Shown one piece after another: positions 15,201 through 21,200 of a DNA stretch of 64,000 nt. How positions within the stretch are numbered: position 1 is the first letter of the stretch; every line of letters begins with the position of its first letter. This DNA comes from Flaccisagitta enflata (taxonomy: Eukaryota), in assembly GCA_965153355.1 (NCBI GenBank), contig OZ231126.1:3534001-3598000 (forward strand). Reading direction: 5' to 3'. A model generated the notes under the pieces. That model had not been told where the DNA came from. It did not search any database and worked only from the letters and a program-made list of their open reading frames with translations. Both the position numbers and the translations under genes were made by a program.

Positions 15201-18200
15201 AATACCCTGAAAAATATTTTTTTCTCAAAAATTTGAAATTTGTATTGGGGGCAAGTTCAGTGAAAGAATGGAGAAAAACACTATCGGTTTTTCTTTTTTC
15301 TCGTCATATATAAAAACGGCTGTAATTTCTAAAATATTGATGCGATTGCCTTGAAATTTTAAATACAAGCTCACGTCATGCTTCTCGACGTTTGAGCCAG
15401 AAATCCTGATTGTGAACTGTCGTGTAGTTGCATGCACTTCTTTGCCTAGATGAGGGCTATCTTTTGCCGCCAAGCAGAGATTCACAGCTCTATCCGTTTG
15501 GATTCTACATTAAAAAGAGTGAGAACGTTGATTCTCAGAAATTGTAAAAAAATGTGTAAAGGTATTTCAATTCAAAATGGCATTATACTCTTTATCAAGA
15601 CATGCCCTTACAGATGCAAGCGATTTCTTAACTCTAAAAAGGTTATTCTGAATACTGGGCTGATGAAAATAGTCATTATCTTATCAGAATTGAAATCAAA
15701 CCATTACTTCATCTAGCTTGGACTTTTATTTTTTCCAAGATAGTAATGCAATTGTCAATGTAAATGTACACAGCAATGATCAAATTTTGAGAATAGGTTC
15801 CACAAGTAAGAAGAAATGCTTAACAAGGCCGGATACACGGCAATCCAGTCGCGGACGGTTGGGCAGGTGCAGTACCGCAAAAACCGCTCGGAATTCAGAA
15901 ATATTTAAATGTGACCGACGGACCGACGGACGGACCGACGGACGGACCGACCGACACGGCAAGGTATAGAGTCGCGTGTCCGCGACTAAAAACCCGCGAA
16001 AATACCAAAAAAACAGCGCTTGTAAATTTAAAAAATCATATATATTTTTAATCTTTTGGATAATTGAAGCAGTGAGCTGAAATAAATCATATTTGCTGTG
16101 AGATGAATTACGAAGTTTGATTAAATCACAACTTTAAGTTAAAATTAATAGTCGTGAAAATGCAAAAGGTATTTGCAATAAAGACGGCATAAGAATTTCA
16201 AAACGAAATGGAGGGATGTTTCCACTTAGTGTGTGCATTAAGCATGCTACTTGTGACGCAGGTATAGTCGCATAAAGGACAAGAAACTGATTTTTGTTCC
16301 GAATGATGATGCAGTCGATGAGCGTTTAAGGTTGACTCATTAGCCGCAGTATAATCGCACAATGTGCATTTAAAGTCTCTGGCCTTTGAGTGAATGCTTT
16401 CATGTACCCGTAAGCTCGACGCTCTCGCGAACTTTGCGTTACATACTCGACACGAAAATTTCTTTTCTCCGGTGTGAGTTTTTTCGTGATTTCTTTTCGA
16501 CGATGGATGGTTAAATTCCATGGGACAGAAATAACAGTGATAAGGGGTGGAGCCGTTATGAGTATTTTGATGAATTCTTAGTAGATCCTTCCGACGAAAT
16601 TTCTTCTCACAAAAAGAGCAAGAATGTGGTGTCACTCCAGCGTGACTTGATTGATGCCGTTTTAAGATACCGGCACTCGCAAAAGTTTTAGCGCATAATT
16701 CACAATAGTAAACCTTTTTGGGCTTCTCTGACTTATTCCCGATTCCATGATGTCTTTGCAGATGCTCTTGCAAATGACCCGGCTGCTTCGTGCAGTATTC
16801 GCAGTATGTACATTTGTAAGGGTTTTCGCCGGTATGGATTCGTTCGTGGACATTCATGGATGATTCAGTTTTGCATTTATATTCGCAAAACCGACATTGA
16901 AATGGTTTTTCTCCTGTGTGTATCCGAAGGTGAAGCTCCAAAGCCCGATAGTTTTTTGCAGTATATGGGCAGTAATTGCAATTCAACTTACTTTCGTCTG
17001 ATTGCGTCGAAAATCTTCGTTCATGAGATTTATCTTTTTGAAAGTGACCCATTATGGCCTTGAAAGGAAACTTGAACTGAGGTTCGGTCCGTACTTACTC
17101 GCGTTCTCGGTTAAACGCTGTCTTGTGTTTATGAAATATTTTGGGCCAGAGACGAGAGTGAGAGTGTTTGAATGGATTTTACCAGTCAACTGGCCGCTCT
17201 GGCGGGCGCAGCATTTTTATGGGCGACTGGATTTGGAGAGAGAGAGAGAGAGAGAGACCAAGTTACATAGATAAAGACCAAGAGAGATACAGGGACTGTC
17301 ACGAAGAATGACGTGAGATGAGACAGAGACAATCGGATTAGTCACGATTGCTCTATCAACATAAAGGTCGCGGCCATTATTTTGACTGAGTTTTGGACGG
17401 ACAGTTAGATAGTCGAGCCGACTGAAAGCAAATCCAAGACAGACAGACTGACAGGCTAAATTTCTTCGTTTGTAGGCAATCGTCTTGTGAATTTAACACG
17501 AAATCGAGTATTCATTTCCTGCCGCTTTCATGGTCGATATACAGACCCAGACAGAGTCCTTTGTCTACAGACACACAAGAGTTTTACCAGTTCTTTGTAG
17601 ACAGACAAGAGTTCTTTTTTAGTAGATCTCGTCTAGACTTGAGATAATGGGGGCAAGCATTGTAGAAGAACAAATGAAGCCAGGGGAGTGATATTTCAAA
17701 CATGGACTAATAAAGGGATGCTTTATTGCCCATGATATCTGGTTGCTATGGAAACGCATTTCTATGTATTTTTGCTAAAATATCAATATTTTGAGAATTT
17801 TTTTAAGGGAACATTTCTTAAAATCAAATTTGCTACAACTTTCCCCCAGTATATTCCGTAAAAATGTCGCTTGTTTAGCGGTTGCCAAAGGGTTGTCACA
17901 CATGGATACGCTCCTTAACAATGACCAAACGAGCGACATTCTTACAGAACATACTGTTAAAAAGTTGTAGCAAATTTGATTTTAAGCAATGTTCCTTAAA
18001 AAAATCTCACAAAATATTGATATTTTAGCGAGAATACATGGAAATGTGTTTCCATGGCAACCAGCTATCATGGAGAATTAAGCATCCTTTGATTAATCTA
18101 TAATCCAAATATCGCTCCCCTGCATTCATTTGTCTTTCCACAATGCTTGCCCCCGTTATCTCAAGTCTAGACGAGATCTACTGTAGAGAATAAGAAAGAC

Positions 18201-21200
18201 AGACTAATGAGTCATTTGTAATGACCCAAGACAATCCTTTACATTGGAGCAATTTAGCAATCGGCTTCTGTGGGTGTGTCACGATTGTTCGATCAACGTT
18301 GTAGACGCAGCCGTTGCATTGACAGACAGACGGACATAAAGAAAGACAGAGAGAAAGGCACAAAGAAAGACAGACAAATAAACCAAGACACTCTTTCGCT
18401 TCGCAACAGGCAATCGTTTTCTGTAGGAGTGTCACGATTGTTCGATTAACATTGTGGACGCGGCCGTTGCATTGACAGACAGACATAAATACAAACAGAC
18501 AGACAAATAGACAGACAGACAAATACCCAAACAATCCTTTTCGTTTGCAACAGGCAATCGTCTTCTGTGGGTGTGTCACGATTGTTCGATCAACATTGTG
18601 GACGCTGCCGTTTCCTTGACAACCGTCCAGCGCGTTCTCACCGACGGATTGCCTTTCCTCCAATGCCTCTGGTGAGTCTCTTTAAGTGGGACTGTCTGTC
18701 GGTCAGTCGGATTGCCTTTCCTCCAATGCCTCTGGTGAGTCTCTTTAAGTGGGACTGTCTGTCGGTCCATCCGTCGGTCAGTCGGACTGCCTTTCCTCCA
18801 ATGCCTCTGGTGAGTCTCTTTAAGTGGGGCTTTCTGTCGGTCCGTCCGTCGGTCAGTCGGACTGTCTTTCCTCCAATGCCTATGGTGAGTCTCTTTAAGT
18901 GGGGCTGTCTGTCGGTCCGTCCGTCGGTCAGTGGGACTGCCTTTCCTCCAATGCCTCTGGTGAGTCTCTTTAAGTGGGGCTGTCTGTCGGTCCGTCCGTC
19001 GGTCAGTGGGACTGCCTTTCTTCCAATGTCTATGGTGAGTCTCTTTAAGTTGTGCTGTCTGTCGGTCCATCCGTCGGTCAGTCGGACTGCCTTTCCTCCA
19101 ATGTCTATGGTGAGTCTCTTTAAGTGGGGCCGTCTGTCGGTCCATCCGTCGGTCAGTCGGACTGCCTTTCCTCCAATGCCTATGGTGAGTCTCTTTAAGT
19201 GGGGCCGTCTGTCGGTCCATCTGTCGGTCAGTCGGACTGCCTTTCCTCCAATGCCTATGGTGAGTCTTTTTAAGTGGGGCTGTCTGTCGGTCCATCCGTC
19301 GGTCAGTCGGACTGCCTTTCCTCCAATGCCTCTGGTAAGTCATTGCATCTCTTAAGTGGGGCTGTCCGTCGGTCTATCCATCGGTCAGTCGCATTGCTTC
19401 TCTATCAATGCCTCTGGTTAGTGTCCACTTGCTTACAAAGTCATCAACAGCAATTGCTGCATTTGAATTTGTCATTGCATCTTTATAAAAGTGTCATGTC
19501 TAGACTTAGAATCAAAAATTTTCATAGGTCAGTCAGTAGCTCAATCTTTTGCATGGACCTGCTTAATGCTTTCAATATTGCACGTTTCAAATTTCAAGGT
19601 TCTGGCTTAAATACTTCAGAAGTTATGAACATTTGTTTGAACCATATCAAGCTGAAAAAATTCTAGGAGAAACTTTAAACTTTCTTTTGTAATATGGCCG
19701 AAACAAAAATTTTCTAAGTTTTTTTTAAAAAAGTGAAATTACAAGATTTTGGATCTAGGCGACTCAAGCGATTGCGCCCCACTTTTTTTTTCAAAAAAAT
19801 ATCCTCATTAAGGGCTTTTTTGGGGGCCCCTAGGGGCCCCTGAGAAGTTCAAAATTTTGGTCAAGGGGATGAACAGAGTTATGTGCATACCCCAATGTAT
19901 CTTTCAGGACCAATTTCAAGCAGATTAATTCAAGCTAGAGCCTATGCCTTTACTACCTTCGGACCGGCCGCATATAAAAGAGAAATAGGAAAATTCACAA
20001 GGACTCAGATTTAGGATCTGAGGTCAATATCTATCATGTCAGTCCGTTTGTCGGTCCTTTACGTCACTTCATAAATCCTGAGGATGACGTATCGAGATTT
20101 ATAAGCCCCTAATTCGTCTGTCACGTCAGTCGATATCGACAATACCGGGCGTAAAAAAAATGAGTTTGTTTTCATTATGCAGTTGCCCCTGCCCTTGTCC
20201 CTGCCCCAGGATGCAGTTGGCGTTTTACATCATTGAAATACGCGTGGCTTGTTTGTTTGATTTTCTTTGGCCCTGTCTTATCAGTCCTTCAGTTTGCCAC
20301 GCATGTGTTTTACTTTCGCAATCTAAAGCTCTGCCTACCTGTTACACAGTGACACATAGTGTCATACAGTGTCACACAGTGTCGCTTAGCATCATACAGT
20401 GTCACACATGTTACAGTGTCATTTCAGTGTCACACAGTGTCACACAGTGTCATGTTACAGCGTCATTTCAGTGTCAAACAGCGTCACACAGTGTCACACA
20501 GTGTCAGATGGAATCGCAAAGTGTCAAAAAGTATCAAAGGGTGTCACACTTTTTTGGTAACTTTGTTTCAGGTTGACGGAATCGTGTTTTGTGGTGGCCG
20601 GTCACGATAATGTGCCAATCATTTACAACTTCGATGGTGAGATAACTATCAAGTGTTATACCGAATATTATAAAGTGATTGATTGATGGATTGATTGATC
20701 TATTGATGTTGAATCTGGGGTGAAATACCTACCAGTGTGAAAATGCTGTAGCGATTGATTGATTGAAATAAAAGGACGGTGAAATGGTGAACGAACAAGA
20801 TCTACATGCAGGAAACAAGTGACGCGGGGTCACAATATCGTTGCGGACGGGTGGGCAGGGGCATCCAACCCCCATCCACACCCAAACCTACCCCAAACAC
20901 TCAAACATACACAAAAAGTATCAAAAACGCTCGTTTTCCCACGTTTCAACTTGATGACCACGGACGGACGGACCAACGGACAAAGCCTCTTATAGACATA
21001 GAGTTGCGTGTCCGCAACTAAAAAGATTGATTGAGTGATTGAATGATGGATCGGTCAATTGTTTCTCCATTTCAGGTGAATTATCTGCAAACGGAATCAA
21101 GTTGGACGTTGAAAGCACGACTGAAGATGAATCCAGCGCAGGAAAAGCCAGAAACATTTTCAAGCAGAAAGAAAGAACAGGATTGACTGCAGGAGAAACG

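What the first reader, a model, noticed from the sequence alone, without database searches (positions are those of the whole stretch)
17330..19425. ARPC1 exon 3 is surrounded by tandem copies of its own splice junctions
Seen: the last ~27 nt of exon 3 plus the donor are repeated 10 times downstream (63 bp spacing, then 75 bp), and every copy keeps a GT donor (gtgagt x8, gtaagt, gttagt). The acceptor region plus the first ~65 nt of the exon is repeated upstream (~18407, ~18256; older decayed copies ~17473 and ~17335, beyond a MITE). In the ARPC1 frame the true junction reads TGG TGA, so using any downstream donor introduces a stop immediately. Inference: either the array is a set of poison/decoy splice sites whose copy number could tune output, or the spliceosome strictly uses the innermost pair. 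Either way a repeat-generating process appears focused on exon-intron boundaries.
Basis: partly seen in the sequence, partly recalled or inferred. Interest (0 to 1): 0.82.

Follow-up and report, generated by a model that had tools for sequence, protein, structure and literature searches.

The report
Splice-junction "mirage" repeats around ARPC1 exon
In a marine animal's gene for an actin-branching protein, both edges of one exon have been copied repeatedly into the neighbouring introns with their splice signals, a real but already described kind of repeat that is probably ignored during splicing.

Summary
ARPC1 is a clean 7-exon, 379-aa gene. The last 26-27 nt of exon 3 plus its donor recur 10 times, all with GT; its acceptor and first 68 nt recur twice (about 90% alike), with two decayed copies further up. 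Array units occur in three DNA runs from two studies, so this is not an assembly artefact.

It matches amphioxus "mirage" minisatellites and the human F7 intron-7 VNTR, where only the innermost site is used; other scan reports note the same on other genomes. Evidence for tuned decoys is absent: the stop follows from a phase-2 GTGA donor, 49 of 74 dinucleotides are as invariant as GT, and a similar exon-5 copy is missing from one animal.

Splice-site use could not be tested: the only RNA run laid gave no reads on exons 4-6. The array spacer resembles a high-copy HINE-like element. A bias towards exon edges is only suggested: 3 of 26 other boundaries are copied, against 1.4% of unique DNA (p=0.006) or 6.2% with dispersed repeats (p=0.22).

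The parts
18554..18671 (+). ARPC1 exon 3 (118 nt, phase 1 in, phase 2 out); the innermost acceptor and donor
18645..19425 (+). Donor-side array: 11 units counting the real exon end. Unit = 26-27 nt exon end + GT donor + spacer rich in GTCY; 63, 75 x8 and 82 nt. The last copy is the most diverged (6 of 26 differences; inner copies 0-4).
18394..18477 (+). Acceptor copy -1 (AG at 18408-9, 144 nt upstream, in frame, with a TAG; stop at codon 230), followed by a (GACA)n-rich spacer
18240..18324 (+). Acceptor copy -2 (AG then one base short; out of frame)
17621..18182 (.). High-copy inverted-repeat element (256-nt arms, 85% complementary) interrupting the acceptor-side series
   Evidence: depth about 1-2.4 million in run X1
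17465..17500 (+). Decayed acceptor copy -3 (AG at 17474-5); borderline significance
17330..17386 (+). Decayed exon-start copy -4, 146 nt upstream of copy -3 (the younger units are 144-153 nt apart)
21287..21342 (+). Single copy of the last 43 nt of exon 5 plus donor, 129 nt downstream. In frame with no stop (would add 43 aa). Absent from the contig of run X6.
9978..10045 (+). Single copy of the last 68 nt of exon 1; its donor has decayed
9259..22825 (+). Whole ARPC1 coding span, 7 exons, 379 aa

Best explanation
A tolerated, functionless 'mirage' minisatellite on both edges of one exon. Step 1 (inferred): a short local duplication took in the exon edge and its splice site, joined through a few shared bases to GTCY/(GACA)n sequence that is abundant in this genome. 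Step 2 (inferred; matches the divergence pattern): slippage or unequal crossing-over expanded the unit and homogenised the inner copies, leaving the border copy to decay. Step 3 (shown for the sequence, inferred for selection): only duplications that leave a complete exon between the innermost AG and GT survive, so exon ends are always copied outwards. Step 4 (by precedent only): the first donor met and the last acceptor are used; any leak to other sites gives a premature stop and would be degraded.
For: Unit anatomy and spacing. All 5 of 28 boundary probes with a copy have it on the outward side; none scores above 23 on the far side. Inner copies differ by 0-4 of 26 nt, the last by 6. Of 30 distinct exon-versus-copy differences, 14 are synonymous: above the 25% expected if both decayed freely (p=0.008) and in line with about 42% for a constrained exon plus a neutral copy (p=0.37); copy -1 has gained a stop. 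GT is not specially conserved. The exon-5 copy is dispensable: X6 record 22 joins 21211 to 21749 with 11 letters between, and the X6 depth of 17.3 in bin 21180-21349 equals 32 covered bases at depth 92. Spacer resemblance to a dispersed element: 76-78% over 37 nt, many window matches, X1 depth of 17,000-37,000 over the array against about 75-190 on single-copy pieces. Shared bases at unit joints. Precedents: PMC1557585, PMC3087553, PMC3902484.
Against: No RNA evidence of which sites are used. In human 6-16 and CBS, two downstream pseudo-sites are used as well (PMC1557585 introduction), so silence is not guaranteed. Copy +9 matches the donor consensus better than the real donor (8 versus 7 of 9), and the real donor is predicted to be the least accessible (0.14 unpaired against 0.35-0.61, crude folding). 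Array units are shared by three samples, which fits either age or selection. Boundary copies are commoner than duplications of unique non-coding DNA, which plain neutrality does not predict.
Confidence: 0.68

Rival explanations
1. Junction-focused origin (compatible with silent splicing). In a highly polymorphic species, exons are the only long stretches alike between alleles. Break repair from the other allele starts in the exon, fails where intron similarity ends, and is closed by end joining, leaving exon end + one allele's intron start + exon end + the other allele's intron.
For: 5 of 28 boundaries, and 3 of 26 without exon 3, have a nearby copy, against 1.4% of 2589 unique non-coding probes (p=4e-5 and 0.006; with the rate doubled, 0.001 and 0.036). 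Alleles are far apart: two X1 contigs differ at 8 of 137 nt, and X6 lacks whole elements. In the exon-5 duplication the exon part differs at 2 of 43 nt but the intron part at 15 of 50 aligned columns (no formal test run). Tandem duplications from aborted homologous repair plus polymerase theta joining are described in C. elegans (PMC8654963, abstract only).
Against: With dispersed repeats left in the background the rate is 6.2% and the excess disappears (3 of 26, p=0.22). For splice junctions alone without exon 3 it is 2 of 19 (p=0.03; 0.10 with the rate doubled). One window, four genes, overlapping probes, and a window chosen for this feature. The synonymous share does not exceed the simple model.
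Confidence: 0.2
2. Regulated decoy or poison array: copy number sets the share of transcripts sent to nonsense-mediated decay and so tunes ARPC1 output.
For: All 10 copies keep GT and all give a stop at codon 265. Pseudo-site use is known in human CBS and 6-16. Units are present in three samples.
Against: The stop comes with any phase-2 GTGA donor. GT retention is unremarkable. The exon-1 copy has lost its donor, the exon-5 copy is in frame and is missing in X6. In F7 only the most upstream site is used even when downstream sites are strengthened.
Confidence: 0.07
3. The gene copy is silent or decaying, so the repeats are unconstrained debris.
For: Run X18 (12.2 million reads read) has zero depth on the bins holding exons 4, 5 and 6. 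Exons 1-2 are duplicated at window 385-1860, about 94-95% alike over the block.
Against: X18 also has zero depth on elements with millions of depth in X1, which suggests it does not represent this genome well (inference).
Confidence: 0.04
4. Assembly artefact.
For: No listed contig spans the whole array, so the count of 10 rests on the window alone.
Against: The units differ from one another. X2, from another study, has record 16 (19158-19262, 2 differences) spanning two exon-end copies, and records 13-15 covering copy -1 through exon 3. X1 record 3 covers 19307-19495 with no difference.
Confidence: 0.01

Closest known systems
Amphioxus 'mirage' minisatellites (Adh3, globins BflGb6 and BflGb9, troponin C, PGBD5). 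Read: matching passages of PMC3087553 and PMC3902484. The original Adh3 paper (PMC117041) was not held.
   Same: Tandem copies of an intron/exon boundary; either boundary can be copied; units of 10-160 bp; 81-100% alike; many keep AG/GT; inner units homogenised and border units excluded; copy number differs between haplotypes; reported not to disturb splicing; mechanism of origin stated to be unclear.
   Different: A different, unidentified fast-evolving animal lineage. Both edges of the same exon are amplified, which the passages I read do not describe (the Adh3 paper may). The spacer resembles a HINE-like element head and a (GACA)n microsatellite. Splicing is untested here.
Human F7 intron 7 37-bp VNTR, with 6-16, CBS intron 13, LMNB2 and PDGFA intron 4 (PMC1557585; abstract and passages read)
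   Same: The first unit spans the exon-intron boundary, so the donor is repeated; 5-25 pseudo-sites; units of 37-100 bp where given.
   Different: F7 units hold only 4 exon nt (here 26-27). Those cases are donor-side only. Use of sites was measured there: only the first in F7, LMNB2 and PDGFA; two extra in 6-16 and CBS.
DINE-1/HINE non-autonomous Helentrons (PMC4067079; passages read)
   Same: Dispersed elements in this window have a palindromic subterminal repeat, a GTCY microsatellite, a second subterminal repeat and a 3' stem-loop in T-rich sites. The donor-array spacer resembles their head. HINEs are reported near duplication breakpoints in Drosophila.
   Different: The spacer lacks the subterminal repeats and the 3' end, so it is at most a fragment; no autonomous partner was sought.

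Membership tests
Mirage / boundary-spanning minisatellite | Tandem units that include both exon and intron sequence of the gene's own boundary | tested here: met
Mirage / boundary-spanning minisatellite | Unit length in the reported range (10-160 bp) and identity 81-100% | tested here: met
   63-82 and 144-153 nt; 93% and 82% matches; range
Mirage / boundary-spanning minisatellite | Many units keep AG/GT | tested here: met
   10 of 10 donor copies; AG before copies -1, -2 and -3
Mirage / boundary-spanning minisatellite | Concerted evolution inside the cluster, border unit excluded | tested here: met
   one variant shared by 8 copies and one by 5; last copy has 6 of 26 differences
Mirage / boundary-spanning minisatellite | Length differs between haplotypes | tested here: inconclusive
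   short contigs collapse the exon-3 array; presence/absence seen only for the exon-5 copy, in one contig
Mirage / boundary-spanning minisatellite | Normal splicing unaffected | tested here: inconclusive
   RNA run X18 gave no depth on exons 4-6 and no joints; the metagenome scan found no ARPC1 contig among 11 loci
Mirage / boundary-spanning minisatellite | Somatic length instability (Adh3) | not testable with these tools
   needs single-molecule typing of one animal
HINE/DINE-1 (dispersed elements in the window) | Subterminal repeats, microsatellite, 3' stem-loop, T-rich target, high copy number | tested here: met
   by inspection of 5 elements, one printed without its 3' end; depth in the millions in X1
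HINE/DINE-1 (array spacer) | Subterminal repeats and 3' stem-loop present in the spacer | tested here: not met
   only the stretch after the 5' repeat and the GTCY run align
HINE/DINE-1 | Autonomous Rep/helicase/endonuclease partner in the genome | not testable with these tools
   no genome held
Poison-exon / unproductive splicing regulation | Measured, regulated use of the stop-producing site and its conservation | tested here: inconclusive
   no RNA; GT not conserved above background

The most novel reading that the evidence does not exclude
Mirages are not random: in very polymorphic marine animals, exons act as islands of similarity between alleles, and repair that breaks off at the exon edge keeps generating splice-junction duplications across the genome. 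This window, with copies at 4 of 12 ARPC1 junctions, an inter-allelic-looking duplication at exon 5 that is still polymorphic, and copies at two stop codons, would be a snapshot of that process and a natural library for splice-site choice and intron birth.
Probability: 0.2. Interest if true: 0.65.

Novelty: new member of a known kind. Interest (0 to 1): 0.3.

Why it matters
As it stands, a clean two-sided example of a little-studied repeat in a further animal lineage. It is a natural test of first-donor/last-acceptor choice and a trap for gene prediction and read mapping. The open point is origin: PMC3087553 calls the mechanism unclear. If boundary copies prove enriched genome-wide and trace to divergent alleles, that would explain mirages and feed models of intron gain. 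The polymorphic, in-frame exon-5 copy is the most direct handle on both origin and possible protein consequences.

Tried and rejected
1. Whole genome: none held, so no genome-wide test.
2. RNA: X18 was the only raw-read RNA run among 21 listed. Of 12,162,974 reads (about 6 in 100 of the run), 611 were laid, 94% running on unlike the stretch, none on the bins for exons 4-6, and no joint listed. Uninformative on splice-site use.
3. Metagenome scan with a degenerate exon-3-end pattern: 11 loci, 0 of 11 matching ARPC1 or the region; treated as chance.
4. 'Copies are captured functional alleles': 14 of 30 synonymous does not exceed the simple model; not supported.
5. Masking of decoys by RNA structure: predicted accessibility does not favour the real donor; the inverted GACA/GTCY arms across the exon are at most 29 nt and 72-82% complementary. 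Rejected as weak.
6. Taxon: the tree groups the protein with unnamed P0001 and P0002 (100/100) among animals, with no named sister (33 rows: 32 of the 120 hits plus the window protein); cluster look-up gave no names. NCBIfam gave nothing (a prokaryotic library).
7. In one search the acceptor positions 17477/17478 were off by one; redone at 17476.
8. The first background wrongly dropped the segmentally duplicated region; one search replaces it. There 126 of 2715 (and 185 of 3892) probes lying inside the boundary copies were dropped.
9. Literature: 9 searches. Their listings showed no genome-wide count of boundary-spanning repeats; most subscription papers are not covered. No supplements were read; those of PMC3087553 (mirage alignments) may bear on the comparison.
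Full report
THE GENE. The exon at the centre of the finding belongs to ARPC1, the p40 subunit of Arp2/3. Exon 2 matches human ARPC1A at E 1.6e-39 and 278 proteins in the large search. Seven exons (9259-22825) with GT..AG introns give one 379-aa frame, 207 residues identical to its best relative P0001. The source is a marine animal with a fast-evolving ARPC1: holders of exon 2 are 'organism A' and marine metagenomes, and the tree puts it with two unnamed proteins among animals. 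I cannot name the taxon.

The last 26-27 nt of exon 3 and its donor recur 10 times at spacings of 63, 75 x8 and 82 nt, with GTGAGT eight times, then GTAAGT and GTTAGT. The acceptor and first 68 nt recur at 18410 and 18257/8 (7 and 6 differences), with decayed copies at 17341-17386 (clear) and about 17465-17500 (borderline), cut off from the younger ones by a 560-nt inverted-repeat element. Each downstream donor stops the frame at codon 265; the upstream acceptors stop it at 230, 240, 266 and 236.

IT IS IN REAL DNA. Contigs of three DNA runs from two studies carry the units. In X2 (a wild metagenome) record 16 spans two exon-end copies (19158-19262, 2 differences) and records 13-15 cover copy -1 through exon 3; X1 record 3 covers the array's end exactly. 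X1 may be the source of the assembly and is not independent. No listed contig spans the array, so the number 10 rests on the window.

ANATOMY AND ORIGIN. The donor unit is exon end + donor + a spacer resembling the head of the window's commonest dispersed element (76-78% over 37 nt; many matches, no null computed; X1 depth 17,000-37,000 over the array). Those elements have the HINE/DINE-1 layout (PMC4067079 passages), but the spacer lacks their ends. The acceptor unit's spacer is (GACA)n-rich and joins the exon copy at a shared GACA. Inner donor copies share variants (one in 8 copies, one in 5) while the border copy has decayed, the pattern described for mirage clusters. I infer a microhomology-joined local duplication followed by ordinary minisatellite turnover.

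NO SIGN OF FUNCTION. The immediate stop follows from a phase-2 intron starting GTGA (direct from sequence). In 8 aligned units 61 of 75 columns and 49 of 74 adjacent pairs are invariant, so an invariant GT needs no selection. Of 30 distinct exon-versus-copy differences 14 are synonymous, fitting a constrained exon beside neutral copies (expected about 42%, my estimate; p=0.37) and not free decay of both (25%; p=0.008). The same kind of copy exists at exon 1 (donor lost) and exon 5. The exon-5 copy is absent in X6: record 22 (depth 92) runs from 21211 to 21749 with 11 letters between, the length of 21341-21351, so it lacks both the copy and an 8-bp-TSD element; the bin depth of 17.3 agrees. The 11 letters were not shown, and this is one contig. 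Against this reading: copy +9 fits the donor consensus better than the real donor, and crude folding makes the real donor the least accessible.

SPLICING WAS NOT MEASURED. The only raw RNA run (X18; 12.2 million reads read) gave no depth on the bins for exons 4-6 and no joint; its 611 laid reads are mostly repeat matches. It also shows nothing on elements with millions of depth in the DNA runs, so it may not represent this genome (inference). A metagenome scan gave 0 of 11 relevant loci. Use of the innermost pair rests on precedent: in F7 only the most upstream of several identical donors is used, even against strengthened downstream sites (PMC1557585 abstract and passages), and mirages are reported not to disturb splicing (PMC3087553 and PMC3902484 passages). 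The same F7 paper notes two extra sites used in 6-16 and CBS, so some leak is possible.

IS THE PROCESS AIMED AT EXON EDGES? Across four gene models, 5 of 28 boundary probes have a copy within 1.5 kb, always outwards: ARPC1 exon-1 donor, exon-3 acceptor and donor, exon-5 donor, and the stop of a nested gene. Without exon 3 it is 3 of 26, against 1.4% of 2589 unique non-coding probes (p=0.006; 0.036 with the rate doubled), but against 6.2% of 3707 probes when dispersed repeats are kept (p=0.22). Probes overlap and the window was picked for this feature, so this is a hint. One mechanism that would give a true bias is repair between divergent alleles that starts in an exon and breaks off where similarity ends. 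Alleles here are divergent, the exon-5 duplicate differs more in its intron part (15 of 50 columns) than in its exon part (2 of 43), and duplications from aborted homologous repair are known (PMC8654963 abstract). The allele-island link is my inference.

COMPARISON AND VERDICT. The structure meets the sequence-level features of amphioxus mirages and F7-type VNTRs; the splicing and somatic-instability features could not be tested. The mirage lead came from this scan's earlier notes (12 notes in at least 3 genomes), which I checked only by reading the two papers; none overlapped this genome or sequence. New member of a known kind, with two modest extras: both edges of one exon, and a polymorphic single-copy stage at exon 5. 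Interest 0.3.

Noticed in passing
window 21201-21756: The exon-5 donor copy would add 43 aa in frame with no stop, in a variable part of the protein; it and a hAT-like element (21360-21748, 8-bp target duplication; the family label is recalled) are absent from the X6 contig.
   Followed up: partly
window 1-5880 versus about 8870-14075: Exons 1-2 of ARPC1 and the nested gene are duplicated in tandem, about 94-95% alike: a real segmental duplication or an uncollapsed haplotype.
   Followed up: partly
window 11596-12495: A three-exon gene model for a 130-aa protein with an apparent signal peptide and cysteine-rich end lies inside ARPC1 intron 2 on the same strand.
   Followed up: partly
window 12467-12504 and 13130-13167: 38 nt around that gene's stop codon are repeated exactly, 625 nt apart, flanking an inverted-repeat element.
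   Followed up: partly
window 34047-34097 and 42051-42224: A two-exon thymosin-beta-like gene (label recalled, not searched); 50 nt around its stop are repeated 70 nt downstream at 82%, below the probe threshold.
   Followed up: partly
window 20814-21019: A HINE-like element in ARPC1 intron 4 is absent from the X6 contig: an insertion polymorphism.
   Followed up: partly
window 9625-10163, 10807-11043, 22359-22547: Three ARPC1 introns begin with long simple repeats close to the donor: (GTT)n, (GA)n and (GAT)n.
   Followed up: no
window 22570-22710: Faint degenerate echoes of the exon-7 acceptor upstream (score 29, no null).
   Followed up: partly
window 52623-52687 and 53796-53857: Two exons of a further small, apparently secreted protein; remaining exons not found.
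   Followed up: no
window 48929-49174: An 80-bp x3 tandem repeat of unique sequence, not at a boundary I could annotate.
   Followed up: no
window about 36480-39800 versus 57060-60300: A long dispersed duplication, seen by eye.
   Followed up: no
run X18: An RNA run labelled as organism A has no reads on this gene's exons 4-6 or on several very high-copy elements of the window; it may come from a divergent lineage or another organism.
   Followed up: no
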